Source: a virus (lineage: Duplodnaviria > Heunggongvirae > Uroviricota > Caudoviricetes). From it: a stretch of 24,646 nt of DNA. Positions 2,720 to 14,813 of the stretch are shown here, in pieces. Both the position numbers and the translations under genes were made by a program. The stretch's first letter is position 1, and every line of letters begins with the position of its first letter. The notes beneath the pieces are model-generated. The model saw only the letters and a list, made by a program, of their open reading frames with translations. It did no database searches and was not told where the DNA came from. Location: positions 1 through 24,646 of IMG/VR virus record IMGVR_UViG_2663763286_000010; one strand, 5' to 3'.

Positions 2720-5136
2720 TCAACTCTCGCGTAGTCATTCATCAACGGATCATCAATTGACAGTGGCACCGTGCGCATAACGCCCGGTTGAGGCGTGCTG
2801 ACCTTTACGACAGTTCCCTGGCCTTTCGCCGAGTCTTTAGTGTGCTCTTCAATCCTGGCGAGCAATGAGGTCATCTGCGCAAACAGCCGCTTCGTTTCAC
2901 CATCAAGTGAAACGGTATTATCAGCCAACTGCATTGTCGGCTTGGCACCGGAGCCGCCAAGGTCACTAATAACCTGTCCGTCTATCTGCATACGACCGGT
3001 TGGTTGCTGCAAATCGTTGGCGGCAGTCGTCACCAGGGACGTGGAGGCTGGTTCAGGCGCATTATTTTTCCGCATCCCCGGCGAGTTGCGGAGTTTATCG
3101 AATAGTCCATCAATCCCCATTTGTGCGCCGAGTTGGTCAAAGTAACTTGAGTTGCTGGCCACCGGACGCGCCTCTTCAACTGGCATCGGAGTATCAACAT
3201 ACACATTGCCAGCTGCTGTTGCGGTCCCCTTCCCTCGTGCACGTTCTTCGAGCGTTCCCTGAACGACTTCCCGACGCATACCCCGGCCATTCATGAATTT
3301 GTTGACCAGATCGTTAACACCAACAGCATTGCCAATTTTGTCTACCAGACCGCCTTTCTCAAACGGGCTATCACCAGGGGTAAACGCCAGGCCAGTAGAC
3401 TGATCGATAACAGCGTTATCAGGTATCTTTTCGTGAATTGCTGGTGCGCTATGATCTACCTTAGAGCCATAAACGGCACCATTATTGAGCATCTGCTGAT
3501 ACCCTCTGACACGAGTAACATATTCGCCGGTACCGGCGACTACTCTCCCCTTATCAACATGCCCCATACCAGCATGATAGGCAGCTATTGCACGACCCTG
3601 ATCACCGTTATAACGGTTCATCAGCATACTTAGGTATCTGGCGGCACCATCAGCTGCTTTTCGTGTATCCATGGCATCAGCATCGCTGAGTCCAAGATCC
3701 TCCCTTGTACCTTTAGTGATCTGAAAAGCCCCAAGGGCAGATGAAAGTTTGTTCCCGTTTTTGTCTACTGGATTTCCAGTTCTCTGGCCTGCACTAGACT
3801 CTGCGGATGCAACTGCTGACAGAATCCCTTTTTCAAGCCCATACTTACGTTCAAGCTCATCAAAATAATCGGCATTGTCAGAAATCCATTGGTATCCGGC
3901 AGCATTTAATTTTGGCAAAGAAACATCCTTGCCATTGTTAAATCGACGTTTATCTATCTCATATGCACTTAATGCTTCCTCCTTACCTGTAGCAGACTGG
4001 CCCAAGGCAGCATCAATTGTTTGTGCTGCTTTATTTCCTGTTTCTACGGCATTTGCATTGATAATCTGATTAGCAGTTTCTTTAACTGTTTTATTGCTAT
4101 CTTTCGCCATATCCAGGGCCGCATTTATCACGCGGGCAGCAATATTAGTCTGTTTGGCATCGGATTCAGCTTTAGAATCAGATGTCCCCTGCTGGCTATT
4201 AACCGGAGCTTTTAACTCTGGAGTGATTTCTTTCGCATTAGCCTCGCCGATCGGATTGGGTATTTTTGATACAATCATTGCCGCAGGGGTATTTTTAACG
4301 GCATCAACCGCTGCATCTAATGCTTTACCTGGTAAATTTTTAACCCCATCCCAAATATTACTAGCTGCCTCTTTAATGTGTTTCCCTGGGTTCTTAATGA
4401 AATCAATTGCACTATCAATTGCATCACTGAAAACCTGTTTCAGGTTATCGACAGTAAAGAAGTCTTTGATGGCATCCAGCTTTTCAAGCAGCTTATTAGA
4501 TGTATCGCTAAACCATGCTGAAACAGCATCACCAATCTTTGCTGTGTAATCATCGAACTTGGTAGAAATGGTGTCGCCAAGGTTAGAAATATATGTTTCT
4601 AAGTTGGTAATCCCACTATCAATGGCCTGGGCAATACTTTCCGTCGAAAATGATTGCAACATATTGCCGATATCCTCAAATCCAAGTGATTTGAGAACAT
4701 CACCAATAGCACTGCTAATACCAGATACCAGCCCCCCCAAATCAAGAACATTGGCTAACGTATAAGCGGCTTTTTGCTGGAATGATGGATCTTGTCCTGA
4801 TTTAAGCCCAAACGCTCGACGTTGCGCTTCTGTATCATTCCAACCGGTTACCGCATCATAAATACCTCCAGCCACTGTGCCGACTAGGGGAATTGCGCGT
4901 AACGCCCCTTTACCAACTGCCTTTAATCCAAGTTTACCTGCTGCCCGGGCAGCCAAATCTCCGCCTTCATGGGCGAGAGTCTTCTTGCCACCACCGCGTA
5001 GCATTCCTACAAGTTTCTTTGCCCCCAGAGCGCCAAAAGCGAGTGCTCCAGCTTTTTTCAGCATGCCACGCCCCATTAACAACGACGCGACGCCACCGGC
5101 CCCCTTCCCTAACAGGCTAAATAATTTGGACAGCAA
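2716..5136 (-). CDS. sit: Sit-like tail tape-measure / structural injection transglycosylase, C-terminal segment with lytic transglycosylase (SLT) domain; same reading frame as 5284-6081
   Basis: 806-aa ORF with Gly/Ala/Lys-rich N-terminus and an SLT-like segment (ILSAVASAESSAGQ...GAFQITKGTREDLG...AAYHAGMGHV). The listed start at 5136 is TTG; the frame is open up to a TAA at 5284-5286. Confidence 0.85.
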   Translation of the reverse strand: MLSKLFSLLGKGAGGVASLLMGRGMLKKAGALAFGALGAKKLVGMLRGGGKKTLAHEGGDLAARAAGKLGLKAVGKGALRAIPLVGTVAGGIYDAVTGWNDTEAQRRAFGLKSGQDPSFQQKAAYTLANVLDLGGLVSGISSAIGDVLKSLGFEDIGNMLQSFSTESIAQAIDSGITNLETYISNLGDTISTKFDDYTAKIGDAVSAWFSDTSNKLLEKLDAIKDFFTVDNLKQVFSDAIDSAIDFIKNPGKHIKEAASNIWDGVKNLPGKALDAAVDAVKNTPAAMIVSKIPNPIGEANAKEITPELKAPVNSQQGTSDSKAESDAKQTNIAARVINAALDMAKDSNKTVKETANQIINANAVETGNKAAQTIDAALGQSATGKEEALSAYEIDKRRFNNGKDVSLPKLNAAGYQWISDNADYFDELERKYGLEKGILSAVASAESSAGQRTGNPVDKNGNKLSSALGAFQITKGTREDLGLSDADAMDTRKAADGAARYLSMLMNRYNGDQGRAIAAYHAGMGHVDKGRVVAGTGEYVTRVRGYQQMLNNGAVYGSKVDHSAPAIHEKIPDNAVIDQSTGLAFTPGDSPFEKGGLVDKIGNAVGVNDLVNKFMNGRGMRREVVQGTLEERARGKGTATAAGNVYVDTPMPVEEARPVASNSSYFDQLGAQMGIDGLFDKLRNSPGMRKNNAPEPASTSLVTTAANDLQQPTGRMQIDGQVISDLGGSGAKPTMQLADNTVSLDGETKRLFAQMTSLLARIEEHTKDSAKGQGTVVKVSTPQPGVMRTVPLSIDDPLMNDYARVD

Positions 5137-5283: not shown

Positions 5284-6081
5284 TTACGATTTACGCCTAA
5301 AAAAACCTTTTCTACGGCTGTTATCGTCATTGCCACGAATCACATCGGCAATAGACTTTCTGGCACCATTAAGCGATCCACCAACTTCTTTTGATATCCC
5401 GCCAAGCTCCTTCCCTGCGGCCCACAATGGACCAGCAACGGCATAACCTAACGCATCGACGGCACGAGTCTCTGAAGGGTTACCTATGCCTTCAGCTACT
5501 TTTGACAGTTTTTTTAATAAACCTGATTCAGCATTTAGACGCTCATCATCCTCTTTGCGCCTGGCCTTTTCAGCACGGGCATCTTCCGCTGCGGCCTTAC
5601 TCCCTGACTTTCCAATAAAACGACCACGCGCATCGCGTTGGTTTTGGCTTTTTTGCGCACCGCCTTTTTGACCGAACATTTCGCGAGCGTGTTCGGCTGC
5701 TTCGGTCCGTTGCGCCTTTACATCTTCTGTTATAGCCTTCTTGCGTCGTTTTTTACCCTTTCGCGTAGTTGATTTGGCCTGCGGTTCCTGTAGAGCAACA
5801 TCCTCCTGAACTACACGAGAAACGTCCCCTAAATTAAGCCGTTTCATTGCCTCAACAATAGGGTCCACTGATGGCGCATTGGCCACAAAGTCTGGCCGGG
5901 AATTTTCGATTGTGCGATTTAATGCCGACACACTGCGAGAGACAGGATCAACTGTAGCAACTCGCCCCCCTTTCAAATCTTCAACGGCTTCCCGAATACC
6001 TGCAAGCTCTTCCAGCTCTTTTGCGCTGGCGGTTTCAACCGTCCTTATCACATCGTCAATGTTGGCGTTTTTTCTTTCCAT
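5284..6081 (-). CDS. sit: Sit-like protein, N-terminal segment (265 aa), terminated by an in-frame TAA that separates it from the 2716-5136 segment
   Basis: Same frame as 2716-5136 ((5284-2716) is divisible by 3); translating 5137-5283 by hand gives 49 sense codons and no stop. The stop lies next to an A7 run (5299-5305). Confidence 0.7.
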   Translation of the reverse strand: MERKNANIDDVIRTVETASAKELEELAGIREAVEDLKGGRVATVDPVSRSVSALNRTIENSRPDFVANAPSVDPIVEAMKRLNLGDVSRVVQEDVALQEPQAKSTTRKGKKRRKKAITEDVKAQRTEAAEHAREMFGQKGGAQKSQNQRDARGRFIGKSGSKAAAEDARAEKARRKEDDERLNAESGLLKKLSKVAEGIGNPSETRAVDALGYAVAGPLWAAGKELGGISKEVGGSLNGARKSIADVIRGNDDNSRRKGFFRRKS

Positions 6082-7680: not shown

Positions 7681-8288
<608 letters not shown>

Positions 8289-8401
8289 TTGTCATTTGTT
8301 ACCGGTCAGTCTACACATTTCAGATACTACGTTAAAACAACTCAAGTGCTTCAAGTAGCAAATCGCCATCAACACCCAGCCCAAAGATGCGGAGATAAAA
8401 T

Positions 8402-9586
8402 TCAAGCCTTAAGAGGCTTTGTGTATGTTCGAGGAATCCATCCAGTAATAAACTCATCCCCTGATTTAACCTGCACGTAAAGCCATTGACGATCTTTCTT
8501 ATCTAAAATAGCAACAATTGTGTTTTTGCCAATGCATTCAATCACTTCACTATTTAAAGAAGGACTGACATGTAATCTTACGTTATCACCAGTTATAAAC
8601 CTAAAGCCATTGAGATCTTCCCACTTAATTTCTGTATTTTCTTTAATTAATTTTTGTTTTGATATTGGTGCATCCTCATATAGGGATACAGAATATGATT
8701 CTGTCTTGTGTATTTGCGATAAGATTTGTTCTTTTGCATAATCAGCAATAGCGCCAAGCACCACTTCTGTCAAAAGCCACATAATAATAAACTGAAGCGG
8801 GTGAGGGAGCGACTTAAATGAATCAATGAACGTCGAACTGGATTTATTTAATTCTTTGTCTTGAACATCACTTTCGTTGTGAGATGTTTCAATAGCACCT
8901 TCGACATAAGCCTGTGCAATTGATGAAAGACTTTGCTCCATTATTTGATGTAATGAAGCCTTTTGCGCAAGGGTATATTGTTTTAATGATTCTGTTATTT
9001 CATTATTTAAATCTATCTTATGACTTACATTTTGTCGCAATTCATTAAGCATTGCTTGCATGTTATTTAAACCAGCTTGCTTAGTAAGCATCTCGAACTG
9101 GTTTCGTGACGGCATAGCAATTTCTGCCTGTTTCCTTAGCATTTGAATGTATTTATTGGCATCACGCGGGAAAAAAGCCAGAGCCTGTTTCTGTAAAATA
9201 TCAATATGTTTACGATACTCGTTGCCTATTTCTGCCAAATTCGGTCTATGCGAAAACTGTTTTAGAATAGAATCACTAATTAAGGCTTGTGTACTCAACT
9301 TTGCAAGTTGTTCTTGAGCATGGCGCGATATTCTTAACTGTTTTTGCAAGATTGCCATATGTTCTTTATACGATGGAATGATTGCGTTTTTTTGCAGTTC
9401 TGCCAACTGTCTAACCAAATTATTAGAAGCATATTCTGATTTTAATAAATCACTTGCCGATGTATATCCTGGCATTTTGATTTTACTTAAATTATCTCGC
9501 CAAGTAATATTTGAATCTCTATTATAGAGATCGCTTACTGAGCCAAGTGCAAGTTTTTTAATATCCTTCACTTTATTCACCGTCAT
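8402..9586 (-). CDS. Accessory membrane protein: N-terminal coiled-coil region with internal LxKQ repeats, one predicted transmembrane helix, C-terminal SH3b-like domain
   Basis: 394-aa ORF in a markedly AT-rich stretch; repeated motifs (HMAILQKQLRIS, HIDILQKQALAF, YIQMLRKQAEIA, FEMLTKQAGL); hydrophobic segment FIIMWLLTEVVLGAIADYA; C-terminus LNGFRFITGDNVRLHVSPSLNSEVIECIGKNTIVAILDKKDRQWLYVQVKSGDEFITGWIP resembles bacterial SH3 domains. The true start may lie downstream of 9586. Confidence 0.6.
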   Translation of the reverse strand: MTVNKVKDIKKLALGSVSDLYNRDSNITWRDNLSKIKMPGYTSASDLLKSEYASNNLVRQLAELQKNAIIPSYKEHMAILQKQLRISRHAQEQLAKLSTQALISDSILKQFSHRPNLAEIGNEYRKHIDILQKQALAFFPRDANKYIQMLRKQAEIAMPSRNQFEMLTKQAGLNNMQAMLNELRQNVSHKIDLNNEITESLKQYTLAQKASLHQIMEQSLSSIAQAYVEGAIETSHNESDVQDKELNKSSSTFIDSFKSLPHPLQFIIMWLLTEVVLGAIADYAKEQILSQIHKTESYSVSLYEDAPISKQKLIKENTEIKWEDLNGFRFITGDNVRLHVSPSLNSEVIECIGKNTIVAILDKKDRQWLYVQVKSGDEFITGWIPRTYTKPLKA

Positions 9587-10079
9587 CTTGCTTTAAACAC
9601 CCATCATTTTTAGCTTCCTTGTAAATACTTGAAATTCCATCAAGAGAGAATGATGTAATTCGACGCGATCCGATATATACATCCATGTTTTTTTCTTTTG
9701 TGGCTGACGCTGACTTCCAAAAAGAATACCATTCCCTACGATTTGGAGCAGTGTTTTGCGTGCCAATATTAAAGCTATCCGGACCAACAATTAAGGTAAT
9801 TACATCAGCTTTACGAGAAATTGTGTCGCGTGTAGAAAAATCAGCATTCTCTTTCCCTCCGCTTACATACAAATTTCTTCCGGCGATATGATCTTCGGAA
9901 CCTTCCCTTGCTCCAGCATCACAAGAAAAGTTAATTGTATAACCATCGTCATTGGTTGCAGAGATTTCTCTCCATCCTTGCTCACCTCCTACCGTCCAAG
10001 CGGTAGAACCTGCCATTGCTGATAATGGCAGAAAAGAGGATATTAATAAAAAGCTATACAATGACTTATACAATTTCAT
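9573..10079 (-). CDS. Accessory secreted protein with N-terminal signal peptide (168 aa)
   Basis: N-terminus MKLYKSLYSFLLISSFLPLSAMA fits a Sec signal peptide with an AxA cleavage site; overlaps the start of the downstream 394-aa ORF by 14 nt (translational coupling); AT-rich codon usage. Confidence 0.6.
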   Translation of the reverse strand: MKLYKSLYSFLLISSFLPLSAMAGSTAWTVGGEQGWREISATNDDGYTINFSCDAGAREGSEDHIAGRNLYVSGGKENADFSTRDTISRKADVITLIVGPDSFNIGTQNTAPNRREWYSFWKSASATKEKNMDVYIGSRRITSFSLDGISSIYKEAKNDGCLKQDDGE

Positions 10080-10167
10080 ATTTTTATCCTTTTGGTTTTA
10101 GATATTATAGGCATAGTCCATATTGTTAGGTCCACTATGCCCAGAGAATTTAATATTATTCATTAAA

Positions 10168-10659
10168 TTATGGAGCTACACCCGGCCCCCTGGCCCGCTC
10201 TTCAAGCGTACCCTGCACGTTTTGATGGCGCATTCCTGGGGCATTTCTGATTGAGTCAATGCCATTTCTTCCAACATCTTCTTTATTAACGGTATTGCTC
10301 GCCACCAGCACCCCCCAGCTAGGGATAGCAAAATCAGGAGCGGTTTCGCATGCCTTTACCATATAATCGAAAGAGCTTCGATTGATCTCGTTTGCGTCGG
10401 GATTTAATAGGCGAGAATATTGATATTTAGCATTTTCGTTGGTTGCGACTTTATACAGTTCTTGCTGCACCATCGCTTCAGAAAGTTTAAGGCGTTTCAT
10501 ATCTGACAGTAACTTCTTGCGCATGGATTCGTCTTGACTGACAGCAAAGCCGTAAACGTGCCCAAGGTATTTCGTATAATCGGTACAAATCTCCTTTACG
10601 CTTGATGCTGCATTAACAGTCCCAGCCATAAATAATAACGGTAGTAATAGTTTTCTCAT
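10168..10659 (-). CDS. Accessory secreted protein with signal peptide and C-terminal Sit-like motif; candidate superinfection-exclusion protein
   Basis: The ORF track gives 10168-10686, but the likely start is the internal ATG at 10659 (MRKLLLPLLFMAGTVNA signal peptide), preceded by AGGTGAGG. The C-terminus RNAPGMRHQNVQGTLEERARGPG matches Sit GRGMRREVVQGTLEERARGKG and RNSPGMRKNNAPE. Confidence 0.6.
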   Translation of the reverse strand: MRKLLLPLLFMAGTVNAASSVKEICTDYTKYLGHVYGFAVSQDESMRKKLLSDMKRLKLSEAMVQQELYKVATNENAKYQYSRLLNPDANEINRSSFDYMVKACETAPDFAIPSWGVLVASNTVNKEDVGRNGIDSIRNAPGMRHQNVQGTLEERARGPGVAP

Positions 10660-10755
10660 TATAACCTCACCTGCCTTATAACTCATTTAGGGTACATATT
10701 TTCGCCTTTAAAAAAAAGAGGTTATTAGATCTACTTGTGTATTTATTAAGCAAAC

Positions 10756-10772
10756 AATGCTCTAATAAATTT
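10756..10772 (+). promoter_or_regulatory. C1 repressor operator-like site (AATGCTCTAATAAATTT) in the divergent promoter region between the accessory cluster and c4-icd-ant
   Basis: 16 of 17 matches to the asymmetric P1 C1 operator consensus ATTGCTCTAATAAATTT as I recall it; a second copy with similar flanking sequence is at 12426-12442. Confidence 0.65.
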
Positions 10773-10959
10773 GTATTTTTAAGTCACGAATGCTATCTTT
10801 TCGCATCATATTGACCTTTTAATCGTTCAGGCTTATAGTTCCTACGTCGTAGCAAATTCTGCGACCAGGTTTGACAGCCTGAATACTTACGCGGACAACC
10901 GCACATTTCCGATATTGCGGTATTTTTGTGTCCGTAAAACCACGTTACGCCCGAATTAT

Positions 10960-11075
10960 GGTGGGGCGTGATGGGGAGGCTTCGGCCTGCTGGTTTCGTA
11001 AGTGCCAGTCTGTCAACCCTGTCACGTCCTGCCACCTGTTTGACAGCGGGTCGCAGGTTGTTTATCAACTTACGA
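10960..11075 (+). ncRNA. c4: Region expected to encode the c4 antisense repressor RNA of the immI operon (boundaries not resolved); includes a candidate sigma70 promoter TTGACA (11040-11045), 17-nt spacer, TATCAA (11063-11068)
   Basis: Position immediately upstream of icd/ant as in P1 immI; stem-forming repeats (CTGTCAA ... TTGACAG). I cannot reproduce the exact c4 sequence from memory, so the coordinates are approximate. Confidence 0.3.
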
Positions 11076-11085
11076 GGCCGTAACT

Positions 11086-11307
11086 ATGGTTAATGCCAAT
11101 CCTTGCGCACGCCCAGAATTCATCTGGCGTTTCTATTCCTGTAAAAAACACCACTATCACTTCGTTATCGCAGCAACAGAAGACGAAGAACGCTCTCAAT
11201 TGCCTGACGGCCCCTGCATTTTTACTGCCCGTTTTTCAACTAACTCGCGCAATTCACTTAGTTACTGGAACCTCCCCTTCTCTGCCGACGTTCAGGGGGG
11301 TTTATGA
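11086..11307 (+). CDS. icd: Icd-like small protein (interference with cell division), 73 aa, translationally coupled to ant
   Basis: 73-aa ORF whose stop overlaps the ant start (ATGA at 11304-11307); size and position match P1 icd. Confidence 0.7.
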   Translation: MVNANPCARPEFIWRFYSCKKHHYHFVIAATEDEERSQLPDGPCIFTARFSTNSRNSLSYWNLPFSADVQGGL

Positions 11308-14483: not shown

Positions 14484-14569
14484 TACAATCGTTGCGGGTG
14501 CTTGAGGCTATCTGCTTCAGGCATTACCCGAAAAGCAGATAGAAGAAAGCCCCAGATAACATTATGTGT

Positions 14570-14640
14570 CCTGCAAGACGCTTAACATTAATCTGAGGCA
14601 ATATCTATGCTTAGCATACGTAGATTAGCCTCTTACCGAC
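14570..14640 (-). ncRNA. sok: Expected position of a Sok-type antisense RNA covering the mok translation-initiation region (boundaries approximate)
   Basis: Inferred from hok/sok locus architecture; a candidate minus-strand -35 (TTGACC) lies inside early mok. No clean terminator identified. Confidence 0.25.
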
Positions 14641-14813
14641 CAAAAGGTCAAGGAGAAGCAGGCTATGAAGCAGCAAAGAGCGATATTAATCGCTCTGATC
14701 GTCATCTGTTTAACCGTCATTGTGACGGCACTGGTAACGAAGAAAGACCTCTGCGAGGTACGAATCCGAACCGGCCAGACGGAGGTCACTGTCTTCACAG
14801 CCTACGAATCTGA
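14607..14813 (+). CDS. mok: Mok-like overlapping reading frame (modulator of killing) of the hok locus
   Basis: 68-aa ORF in a different frame that starts 58 nt upstream of hok and overlaps nearly all of it, as in hok/mok/sok loci. Confidence 0.6.
   Translation: MLSIRRLASYRPKGQGEAGYEAAKSDINRSDRHLFNRHCDGTGNEERPLRGTNPNRPDGGHCLHSLRI

What the first reader, a model, noticed from the sequence alone, without database searches (positions are those of the whole stretch)
8402..10686. AT-rich three-gene accessory cluster (two secreted proteins plus a membrane-anchored coiled-coil/SH3b-like protein) between the tail genes and the immI region
These three co-oriented genes are visibly more AT-rich than the flanking backbone, suggesting horizontal acquisition. 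Two products have Sec-type signal peptides (MRKLLLPLLFMAGTVNA; MKLYKSLYSFLLISSFLPLSAMA) and the third has a single transmembrane helix, a cytoplasmic repeat-rich coiled-coil region and a C-terminal SH3b-like domain. The 168-aa and 394-aa genes overlap by 14 nt. The cluster sits where P1 carries its superimmunity (sim) locus, next to a C1 operator-like site. I cannot tell from memory whether these are P1 sim homologues or a replacement module, so this is the best candidate for an undescribed envelope-acting exclusion or defence system.
Basis: partly seen in the sequence, partly recalled or inferred. Interest (0 to 1): 0.8.

Follow-up and report, generated by a model that had tools for sequence, protein, structure and literature searches.

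The report
Swapped envelope-protein cassette at P1 sim locus
A P1-like plasmid-prophage carries, where phage P1 has its superinfection-exclusion genes, three untested envelope-protein genes already present in public databases, and one secreted product copies a short peptide of the phage's own DNA-injection protein, hinting that it blocks infection by related phages.

Summary
Three co-oriented minus-strand genes (163/172, 168 and 389/394 aa) lie at 8402-10686. The cassette has 37.6% GC against 47.9% for the rest of the window. It sits between the late promoter LPsit/pmgC and the C1 operator Oc4 of immI, exactly where P1 has simC-simB-simA.

It is not SimB or SimC. The first gene is the full-length "SimA-domain" family; P1 simA is only its 50-codon stump. 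The second belongs to the YfjT/YkfB family. These two form the usual pair at this locus in divergent P1-like elements. The third encodes an inner-membrane protein with a periplasmic SH3b domain. It is an extra, more AT-rich gene that stands alone in other phage-plasmids, so this is a mosaic rather than one inherited three-gene system.

The locus is a published variable region, and about 35 PLSDB plasmids carry this cassette as hypothetical proteins. No function is known and no defence-database model matches.

New lead: the secreted SimA-family protein ends in a ~30-35-residue peptide shared with Sit, the tape-measure/injection transglycosylase, in several lineages. I infer superinfection exclusion at the periplasmic injection step; this is untested. 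Interest is moderate.

The parts
10756..10772 (+). C1 operator Oc4 (former Op51) of the divergent immI operon (c4-icd-ant). It marks the right-hand limit of the exchangeable segment, because P7-type homology resumes at 10758.
   Evidence: The sequence AATGCTCTAATAAATTT was read. It is identical to the P1 operator stretch in alignment A4. P1 annotation is and the breakpoint.
10687..10755 (-). Conserved promoter/leader region of the sim operon. It is the equivalent of the predicted sigma-70 promoter PsimA of P1, at about 10724-10753. The region is backbone, not cassette.
   Evidence: It is almost identical in P1, Ro157c2YLVW, pLR-21-1_3 and the window. PsimA is only a predicted promoter in the P1 record. 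The consensus scan did not pick it up.
10168..10659 (-). w172/w163, a SimA-domain family protein (phrog_3933) of 163 aa from ATG 10659, or 172 aa from ATG 10686. It has a Sec signal peptide MRKLLLPLLFMAGTVNA. The core at aa about 20-125 is a compact all-helical bundle with two invariant Cys. A flexible C-terminal tail follows.
   Evidence: phrog_3933 E 6.5e-114. The family alignment A1 shows invariant C25 and C104. AF2 gives pLDDT above 92 for the core and below 65 for the tail. dN/dS is 0.03-0.14. Only 11 clusters match among 1.84e9 proteins.
10174..10260 (-). Sit-like peptide at the C-terminal end of w172: IDSIRNAPGMRHQNVQGTLEERARGPGVA.
   Evidence: It matches Sit aa 926-954 at 17/29 residues. 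The Smith-Waterman score is 88 against 37.5 +/- 5.3 for shuffles, with 0 of 2000 reaching it and a Gumbel p of 4e-6. DNA identity is only 54/87, with synonymous differences. Profile hits are reciprocal. The peptide is conserved in Salmonella and Klebsiella elements.
9573..10079 (-). w168, a YfjT/YkfB-family secreted protein of 168 aa with signal peptide MKLYKSLYSFLLISSFLPLSAMA. It carries two conserved Cys (C53, C161) and the conserved motifs WYxFW and DGC(L/I)K.
   Evidence: phrog_3429 E 4e-70. Precomputed PF27224 sits on the 98%-identical P0040. It is 28% identical to Ro157c2YLVW gp34 (E 2e-24) and 27% identical to K-12 YfjT (E 5e-5). Alignment A3 is. dN/dS is 0.05-0.22.
8402..9586 (-). w394, a bitopic inner-membrane protein (phrog_7086) of 394 aa from ATG 9586, or 389 aa from GTG 9571. 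The N-terminal ~260 aa are variable, with short repeats, and are inferred to be cytoplasmic. One TM helix follows, then a conserved linker and an SH3b domain inferred to be periplasmic.
   Evidence: dN/dS is 0.5-0.7 in the N-part and 0.04-0.30 in the C-part.
8735..8800 (-). Single transmembrane helix of w394 (aa 263-284, PLQFIIMWLLTEVVLGAIADYA) with a polar E/Q position in mid-helix.
   Evidence: It is the only Kyte-Doolittle 19-residue window above 1.6. Conservation is shown in A2.
8423..8587 (-). SH3b (SH3_3) domain of w394, aa 334-388.
   Evidence: Pfam PF08239 E 6.2e-6, 26.7 bits against a cut-off of 27. PF08239 is precomputed on most homologues. Foldseek matches SH3 domains only, at probability up to 1.0. 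Many columns are invariant.
8279..8308 (-). Left-hand limit of the exchangeable segment. The position of the late promoter LPsit was mapped from P1 by coordinate offset to 8279-8297. Homology to P1, P7 and Ro ends at 8300-8308.
   Evidence: blastn breakpoints. P1 and P7 annotation. An inverted repeat lies at 8248-8294.
3220..3306 (-). Sit (tape-measure / injection transglycosylase) motif copy 1, aa 926-954: VNKFMNGRGMRREVVQGTLEERARGKGTA. This is the sequence that the w172 tail resembles. It lies about 80 aa after the SLT domain (aa 739-844).
3061..3117 (-). Sit motif copy 2, aa 989-1007: GIDGLFDKLRNSPGMRKNN. It resembles the first half of the w172 tail (GIDSIRNAPGMRHQN).
   Evidence: E 0.06 on its own.

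Best explanation
This is a mosaic accessory cassette in the exchangeable 'sim' slot of a P1-like phage-plasmid. The sim promoter and leader it would be read from belong to the conserved backbone, next to the C1 operator Oc4.

Shown here:
- The slot runs from LPsit (about 8300) to Oc4 (10756). Different P1 relatives hold different sets of envelope-targeted proteins there.
- The window holds a SimA-family secreted helical protein, which is the long form of P1 simA.
- It also holds a YfjT-family secreted protein.
- It also holds an extra gene for an inner-membrane protein with an SH3b domain.
- The first two genes are the common pair at this locus in divergent P1-like elements.
- All three are under purifying selection.
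- The SimA-family protein ends in a flexible tail. The tail copies a conserved ~30-35-residue peptide of Sit, the phage's own tape-measure/injection transglycosylase.

Inferred, not shown:
- The cassette is expressed in the lysogen and works as a superinfection-exclusion module against P1-like phages. That is the role of the gene that replaces it in P1 (simC).
- The mature SimA-family protein sits in the periplasm, where only an incoming phage's Sit appears.
- There it either occupies the partner that the Sit peptide normally docks to (decoy), or binds and inhibits the Sit transglycosylase region (Spackle-like). Either way the tail tube and DNA cannot cross the wall and inner membrane.
- The YfjT-family protein is probably its periplasmic partner.
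- The SH3b membrane protein is most likely a separate, wall-anchored add-on. Its fast-evolving cytoplasmic part may set specificity.
For: Position and replacement:
- The slot is the same as P1 simCBA, P7 upf50.0/50.5 and Ro157c2YLVW gp35/gp34. Breakpoints are nested at 8300-8308 on one side and 10180, 10520 or 10758 on the other.
- P1 Sim is reported to cause superinfection exclusion (refs 56-57 cited in PMC8546580).
- Every protein annotated in this slot in the P1, P7 and Ro157c2YLVW records begins with a signal-peptide-like or lipoprotein-type N-terminus.
- The upstream operator, promoter, leader and SD are nearly identical to P1's.

SimA family:
- P1 SimA matches the first 50 aa at 94%.
- phrog_3933 E 6.5e-114.
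- The family is confined to P1-like elements.
- The core is a helical bundle at pLDDT above 92 with two invariant Cys and a disordered tail.

Sit mimicry:
- Searches support it.
- One example is the P0073 tail against a Klebsiella Sit, with about 27 of 34 residues identical.
- Synonymous divergence shows conservation at the protein level rather than a recent DNA copy.

Pairing and selection:
- A SimA-family gene is followed by a YfjT-family gene in 4 of 4 divergent loci, in Ro and in the window.
- dN/dS is 0.03-0.22 for both genes.

SH3 gene:
- Its TM, linker and SH3 part is conserved and its N-terminal part is fast-evolving.
- In P1-like loci it always follows a YfjT-like gene, in 13 of 13 loci that include upstream sequence.

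Precedents:
- T4 Spackle is a secreted helical bundle with a disulfide that inhibits the tail lysozyme gp5 (PMC7677548).
- TP-J34 Ltp is a superinfection-exclusion lipoprotein reported to target the tape measure protein (reference cited in PMC3952083).
Against: - There is no experimental datum for any of the three families.
- The role of the Sit peptide is unknown, so 'decoy' is a guess. The shared peptide could simply record common descent.
- Some family members have lost the second half of the peptide (L033, L034, P0057).
- Expression in lysogens was not shown. PsimA is only predicted, and the promoter scan found nothing above shuffled expectation.
- The classical sim phenotype of P1 was, as far as I recall, seen with multicopy clones. 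That recollection is not checked here.
- The resident sit gene carries a nonsense codon. The cassette is therefore kept here in a probably defective element, which fits any host-beneficial role and not exclusion specifically.
- The SH3 gene stands alone elsewhere, so a three-part mechanism is unsupported.
Confidence: 0.4

Rival explanations
1. These are lysogenic-conversion 'morons' that alter the host envelope for the host's benefit, for example stress tolerance, serum or bile resistance, adhesion or biofilm. On this reading they have no role against phages. The Sit-like peptide would be a relic of the gene's origin.
For: All three proteins are envelope-targeted and none matches a defence model. 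YfjT/YkfB relatives sit in cryptic islands of E. coli K-12 next to membrane and lipoprotein genes, and no phage function is known for them. The cassette is retained in an element whose tape-measure gene is broken. It has a low GC content typical of morons.
Against: The Sit-like peptide is conserved at the protein level across lineages despite synonymous change, which argues for a function tied to Sit. The slot holds the experimentally defined exclusion gene in P1. The SimA family is found only in P1-like elements, which would be odd for a general host-fitness factor.
Confidence: 0.25
2. There is no system. The three are independent genes that happen to share a recombination hotspot, each with its own unrelated function. 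The SH3 membrane protein would be a self-contained unit, for example an exclusion or abortive-infection protein against other phages.
For: GC content differs (0.45, 0.39, 0.35) and so do the breakpoints. SH3 homologues stand alone in the opposite orientation in Citrobacter and Salmonella phage-plasmids of another type. SimA and YfjT pairs exist without the SH3 gene. SH3 alleles are swapped between otherwise near-identical cassettes (L023 is 52% identical against 94-97% for its neighbours).
Against: SimA-family and YfjT-family genes are syntenic in every divergent P1-like locus examined. Within P1-like elements the SH3 gene always follows a YfjT-like gene, and here it is translationally coupled to it.
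Confidence: 0.25
3. The proteins serve the phage's own lytic cycle, for example by conditioning the wall or membrane for lysis timing or for release. The SimA-family protein might neutralise stray Sit transglycosylase activity.
For: The cassette lies directly upstream of the late tail operon. The P1 record predicts promoters reading from simC into pmgC. The SH3b domain is typical of wall-binding lysis enzymes, with a weak hit to the amidase family phrog_1794.
Against: CRISPRi mapping classed simA, simB and simC as non-essential for P1 growth (PMC10695390). The slot content is freely exchanged for unrelated proteins among otherwise near-identical phages. No catalytic domain was detected. A late promoter (LPsit) lies downstream of the cassette, not upstream.
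Confidence: 0.07

Closest known systems
P1 sim operon (simA-simB-simC), the superimmunity / superinfection-exclusion locus
   Same: It occupies the same slot between LPsit/pmgC and Oc4/c4, with the same promoter, leader and first 50 codons. Its products also carry signal peptides.
   Different: w168 and w394 show no similarity to SimB or SimC (E > 0.5). In P1 the SimA-family gene is cut to a 52-aa stump that lacks the helical core and the Sit-like tail.
Escherichia phage vB_EcoM-Ro157c2YLVW gp35/gp34 and the SimA-family plus YfjT-family pairs of Salmonella and Klebsiella P1-like plasmids
   Same: It is the same two families in the same order and slot. gp35 is 98% identical to w172 over 161 aa, and gp34 is 28% identical to w168.
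   Different: Those cassettes have no SH3 gene. gp35 has a 54-aa longer tail. w168 is a divergent YfjT allele, closest (49%) to a Salmonella one.
T4 Spackle (Sp), a periplasmic inhibitor of the tail lysozyme gp5
   Same: Both are small secreted all-helical bundles with a pair of cysteines. Both are encoded by the phage and meet only an incoming phage's wall-degrading injection protein (PMC7677548).
TP-J34 Ltp and HK97 gp15 type exclusion proteins that act on the tape measure protein
   Same: They are prophage-encoded envelope proteins proposed to stop DNA entry through the tape measure protein. Ltp rests on the reference cited in PMC3952083. HK97 gp15 rests on my own knowledge.
   Different: They are unrelated in sequence. 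They are not known to mimic a tape-measure peptide, and they belong to siphoviruses rather than a P1-type myovirus.
E. coli K-12 YfjT / YkfB (CP4-57 and CP4-6 islands)
   Same: w168 belongs to the same family (PF27224; 27% identity, E 5e-5). In both settings a small membrane or lipoprotein gene lies just upstream.
   Different: The function is unknown in both. The K-12 copies are chromosomal and are not next to a SimA-family gene.

Membership tests
P1 Sim exclusion protein (SimC) | Sequence homology to SimC (or to SimB) | tested here: not met
   BLASTP of all three products against P1 SimC and SimB finds nothing below E 0.5. tblastn of SimC and SimB against the window finds nothing below E 0.3.
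P1 Sim exclusion protein (SimC) | Location in the sim slot next to the C1 operator of immI | tested here: met
   The operator lies at 10756-10772. The C4 RNA lies at 10954-11039.
P1 Sim exclusion protein (SimC) | Blocks P1 infection after adsorption | not testable with these tools
   This needs plating, adsorption and DNA-entry assays.
SimA-domain protein family (phrog_3933) | Full-length match to the family profile and to named members | tested here: met
   phrog_3933 E 6.5e-114, covering profile positions 1-162 of 213. It is 98% identical to Ro gp35. RefSeq names the orthologue 'simA domain protein'. Compared with the 213-position profile, the C-terminal ~50 residues are missing.
YfjT/YkfB family (PF27224, phrog_3429) | Match to the family model, signal peptide, and the conserved Cys pair with the WYxFW motif | tested here: met
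   phrog_3429 E 4e-70. PF27224 is precomputed on the 98%-identical P0040. K-12 YfjT matches at E 5e-5. Alignment A3 shows the motifs. The local Pfam copy gave no hit, probably because it lacks this newer model.
Bacterial SH3 domain (SH3_3, PF08239) | Score above the Pfam gathering cut-off, and an SH3 fold | tested here: inconclusive
   The score is 26.7 bits against a cut-off of 27 (E 6e-6). PF08239 is recorded on most homologues. Foldseek gives SH3 domains only, at probability up to 1.0 but E at least 8e-3, on a model with pLDDT 55-82. It is very likely an SH3b domain. Peptidoglycan binding was not tested.
Known anti-phage defence systems (PADLOC-DB 2.0) | Match to any defence protein model | tested here: not met
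   No family matches at E up to 1 for any of the three proteins.
PTP-like phytase (PF14566), suggested by a weak hit to w172 | Alpha/beta PTP fold with a catalytic HCX5R loop | tested here: not met
T4 Spackle-like tail-lysin inhibitors | Homology to Spackle, and binding or inhibition of the injection lysin | tested here: not met
   There is no fold match, so the resemblance is an analogy only. Binding to the Sit SLT domain cannot be tested here.

The most novel reading that the evidence does not exclude
SimA-family proteins could be a previously unrecognised class of periplasmic exclusion factors that work by molecular mimicry. They would display a copy of a conserved post-SLT peptide of the tape-measure/injection protein Sit. 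By doing so they would compete with, or poison, the step at which an incoming P1-type tail opens the wall and inner membrane. YfjT-family proteins, including the K-12 y-genes yfjT and ykfB, would act as partners. P1's own simA would then be the fossil of this system, displaced by simBC.
Probability: 0.2. Interest if true: 0.7.

Novelty: new variant of a known kind. Interest (0 to 1): 0.5.

Why it matters
The sim slot of P1-like phage-plasmids behaves like the defence and exclusion hotspots of other temperate phages. In PLSDB at least four unrelated cassettes of secreted or membrane proteins alternate there (P7 type 168, P1 type 137, this type 35, a sister type 52 records).

If the Sit-mimic idea holds, three things follow:
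- It would give a mechanism for homotypic exclusion in P1-type myoviruses.
- It would assign a first function to the SimA and YfjT/YkfB families.
- It would point to the Sit peptide as a docking element in P1 DNA injection, a step that is poorly understood.

P1-like elements spread resistance genes in Enterobacteriaceae, so exclusion cassettes may shape which of them can co-infect a strain. If the idea fails, this is one more set of prophage morons of unknown role.

Tried and rejected
- **Sim homology.** P1 SimB and SimC homology was rejected.
- **Known families.** No known defence system matches in PADLOC, and no NCBIfam model matches.
- **PTP-like phytase.** This reading of w172 was rejected on four grounds: a sub-threshold hit, an all-helical model, no CX5R loop and no reciprocal hits.
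- **PDB sequence searches.** All three families were searched and nothing meaningful came back.
- **AF2 of w394.** The N-terminal 250 aa were unusable (pLDDT 30-45), so nothing can be said about a coiled coil.
- **Mimicry by the other two proteins.** Searching w168, w394, SimC and SimB against the rest of the window found none.
- **Mobile-element signatures.** No flanking IS, direct or inverted repeats were found around the cassette, so exchange is by homologous recombination in the conserved flanks.
- **Promoters and terminators.** The scan found nothing above shuffled expectation.
- **Isolated phages.** tblastn of w394 against 50,697 phage records gave no match, so no isolated phage is yet known to carry the SH3 gene.
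- **Literature.** Searches for YfjT, for sim variants and for defence in phage-plasmids found no functional study of these proteins. The P1 genome paper (PMC523184) is not held.
Full report
**1. What is in the sequence**

Three minus-strand ORFs occupy 10168-10686, 9573-10079 and 8402-9586. The segment 8309-10757 has 37.6% GC against 47.9% for the rest of the window. No equal-sized stretch elsewhere falls below 43.8%. The dip is uneven: w394 is 35.0%, w168 39.1% and w172 44.9%.

The first ORF most likely starts at ATG 10659 (163 aa). That start has the Shine-Dalgarno AGGTGAGG upstream and puts the signal peptide MRKLLLPLLFMAGTVNA at the very N-terminus. RefSeq annotates the orthologue the same way. 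w168 begins with MKLYKSLYSFLLISSFLPLSAMA.

w394 has one hydrophobic helix (aa 263-284), four short [IM]L[QRT]KQ repeats upstream of it, and a C-terminal SH3_3 match. With the ATG start at 9586 it overlaps w168 by 14 nt. With the RefSeq GTG at 9571 it starts one base after the w168 stop. Only 'coiled coil' is untested.

**2. Where it sits**

The window is a P1-like (Punavirus) phage-plasmid. To the left lie pmgC, tub, pmgB and sit. To the right lie the C1 operator Oc4 (10756-10772), the a1/b1 targets (10833-10885), C4 RNA (10954-11039), then icd and ant.

blastn shows that backbone homology to P1, P7 and phage Ro157c2YLVW stops at 8300-8308, just past the mapped late promoter LPsit. It resumes at 10520 for P1, 10758 for P7 and 10180 for Ro. 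The slot contents differ by relative:
- P1 has simC-simB-simA.
- P7 has upf50.0/upf50.5, a DUF5384 protein and a lipoprotein.
- Ro157c2YLVW has gp35/gp34.

The operator, the predicted PsimA region, the leader and the first codons are almost identical in P1, Ro, a plasmid relative and the window. So different cassettes sit behind the same promoter and leader region. No IS ends or long repeats flank the cassette.

The sim region is already listed as one of eight variable, low-GC regions of P1-like phage-plasmids (PMC9603915).

**3. Identity of the three genes**

*w172.* P1 SimA (52 aa) is 94% identical to its first 50 residues. Ro gp35 (215 aa) is 98% identical over 161 residues and then continues where w172 stops. 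It belongs to phrog_3933, and RefSeq names the orthologue 'simA domain protein'. P1 simA is therefore the 5' stump left when simB-simC replaced the rest.

The family is tiny. A profile search of 1.84 billion representative proteins returned 11 clusters. The word-indexed search found members only in E. coli, Klebsiella and Salmonella, on contigs of about 90 kb.

*w168.* It matches phrog_3429. It is 28% identical to Ro gp34 and 27% to E. coli K-12 YfjT. Its 98%-identical cluster representative carries PF27224 (YfjT). Conserved features are a Cys pair, WYxFW and a C-terminal DGC(L/I)K.

*w394.* It matches phrog_7086. Homologues occur only in Enterobacteriaceae, mostly on phage-plasmid-sized contigs. 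The TM helix, linker and SH3 domain are nearly invariant. The N-terminal 250 residues vary in length and in repeat number. Foldseek sees only SH3 domains.

None of the three matches PADLOC or NCBIfam models.

**4. One system or a mosaic?**

I looked up four divergent P1-like loci: two from Salmonella, one from K. aerogenes and one from a metagenome. In all four a SimA-family gene is followed by a YfjT-family gene and then pmgC. One of them has a small polytopic membrane gene between the two. Ro has the same pair. This pair is therefore the common, probably ancestral, content of the slot.

The SH3 gene is an addition. In IMG/VR, every P1-like locus that includes upstream sequence has it directly after a YfjT-like gene (13 of 13, in two cassette types). 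In another phage-plasmid backbone (Citrobacter, Salmonella) it stands alone and in the opposite orientation.

Its alleles are shuffled independently. In L023 the neighbours are 94-97% identical to the window's, but the SH3 protein is only 52% identical.

dN/dS is 0.03-0.14 for w172 and 0.05-0.22 for w168. For w394 it is 0.04-0.30 in the TM/SH3 part and 0.5-0.7 in the N-terminal part. All three are real, selected genes. They do not share one history.

Census in PLSDB: P7-type 168 records, P1 simCB 137, window-type 35 and the sister SH3 type 52. The window-type cassette is in 32 of 5426 complete E. coli genomes, almost always on plasmids. No isolated phage record holds the SH3 gene.

**5. The Sit-like peptide**

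The PHROG scan gave a small hit of the w172 tail to phrog_2533, the Sit family. Direct comparison shows the following.
- w172 IDSIRNAPGMRHQNVQGTLEERARGPGVA matches Sit 926-954 VNKFMNGRGMRREVVQGTLEERARGKGTA at 17 of 29 residues.
- A second Sit copy (GIDGLFDKLRNSPGMRKNN) resembles the first half of the tail.
- The alignment score is 88 against 37.5 +/- 5.3 for 2000 shuffles. None reached it, and the Gumbel p is 4e-6.
- The reverse searches also hit. The Sit C-terminus finds phrog_3933 at E 2.7e-8, and Ro gp35 finds phrog_2533 at E 1.2e-7.
- At the DNA level only 54 of 87 bases agree, and the identical residues use different codons. The peptide is therefore kept by selection on the protein and is not a recent copy.

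The resemblance recurs in divergent elements, with z of 13.7 in Salmonella L031 and 11.1 in K. aerogenes L032. One family member's tail (P0073) matches a Klebsiella Sit at about 27 of 34 residues. Even the most distant member (P0075) keeps NAPGMRHQAVKGSMAERARG. Some members keep only the first half.

The peptide lies about 80 residues after the SLT transglycosylase domain of Sit (aa 739-844). w168, w394, SimB and SimC show nothing comparable.

**6. Most likely mechanism**

*Shown.* A secreted, disulfide-capable helical protein is encoded behind the conserved sim promoter and leader region. It carries on a flexible tail a peptide that otherwise occurs in the phage's injection protein.

*Inferred.* The resident phage's Sit is assembled in the cytoplasm, so in the periplasm this protein can only meet the Sit of an incoming phage or Sit's periplasmic partner. 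It could act as a decoy for that partner. It could also act as an inhibitor of the Sit wall-cutting region, by analogy with T4 Spackle. Spackle is a secreted helical bundle with a disulfide that inhibits the tail lysozyme gp5 (PMC7677548). Another analogy is Ltp, which is reported to target a tape measure protein (cited in PMC3952083).

That P1 replaced this gene pair with simBC fits a like-for-like swap, because SimC is the known exclusion protein (references cited in PMC8546580). The YfjT-family protein is the constant neighbour and a plausible partner.

The SH3b membrane protein is most simply a separate wall-anchored module. Its variable, probably cytoplasmic N-terminal part evolves fast, as specificity determinants often do. 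I have no evidence for what it binds.

I put about 0.4 on exclusion as the function and about 0.2 on the mimicry mechanism specifically.

**7. Rivals**

- Host-benefit morons with no phage role.
- Three unrelated genes sharing a hotspot.
- A role in the phage's own lytic cycle.

The first two are compatible with much of the evidence. The third is weakened by the reported non-essentiality of simABC in P1 (PMC10695390) and by the free exchange of slot contents.

**8. Verdict**

The cassette is real, selected and in the sim slot. It is a mosaic variant of a known exchangeable locus. It is already present in dozens of public plasmids as hypothetical proteins, and it is not a recognised defence system. 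What is new is twofold: P1 simA is recognised as a remnant of a conserved SimA/YfjT pair, and the SimA family is found to mimic a Sit peptide. Both are testable with simple plating and mutagenesis experiments.

Noticed in passing
window 5284-5286 (minus strand, sit codon 266): The tape-measure/injection transglycosylase gene sit carries an in-frame TAA where relatives have CAA (Gln), with identical sequence around it. Unless this is a sequencing error, the element probably cannot build tails and is a defective prophage-plasmid.
   Followed up: partly
window 14496-14670 (+): Rfam finds a sok antitoxin RNA (115 bits) just after repL. A hok/sok addiction module therefore sits where P1 has rlfA/rlfB, which is another listed variable region.
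   Followed up: no
L002 (P1 NC_005856) 3884-4042; window 10520-10686: P1 simA (52 aa) is only the signal peptide plus about 25 residues of the SimA-family protein. Homology between P1 and the window ends at window 10520, inside the gene.
   Followed up: yes
L005 5077-5427; L031 10768-11121: A 116/117-aa polytopic membrane protein precedes the YfjT-like gene in the sister E. coli cassette and in a Salmonella P1-like element. E. coli K-12 CP4-57 likewise has ypjK (membrane) and yfjS (lipoprotein) before yfjT. YfjT-family genes seem to travel with a small membrane partner.
   Followed up: partly
window 8402-9586 compared with L023 2798-3868: SH3-protein alleles differ by up to 48% between cassettes whose two upstream genes are 94-99% identical. 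dN/dS is 0.5-0.7 in the N-terminal part and 0.04-0.30 in the TM/SH3 part. This suggests allele swapping or diversifying change in the N-terminal repeats.
   Followed up: partly
L005 4361-5077: In the sister cassette type, homology to the window stops at 11113, so the c4/a1b1 part of immI is replaced by unrelated sequence. I did not examine this sequence.
   Followed up: no
window 8248-8294: A 17-nt inverted repeat (88% complementary, 13-nt spacer) spans the end of pmgC upstream sequence and the mapped late promoter LPsit. It may be the Lpa-box region or a terminator for the cassette.
   Followed up: no
window 10083-10167 (minus strand intergenic between w172 and w168): This 85-nt AT-rich spacer holds an 8-bp stem (GGCATAGT/ACTATGCC) followed by TATAAT. 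It could be an internal promoter or a processing site for w168-w394. It lies inside the segment that is absent from Ro157c2YLVW.
   Followed up: no
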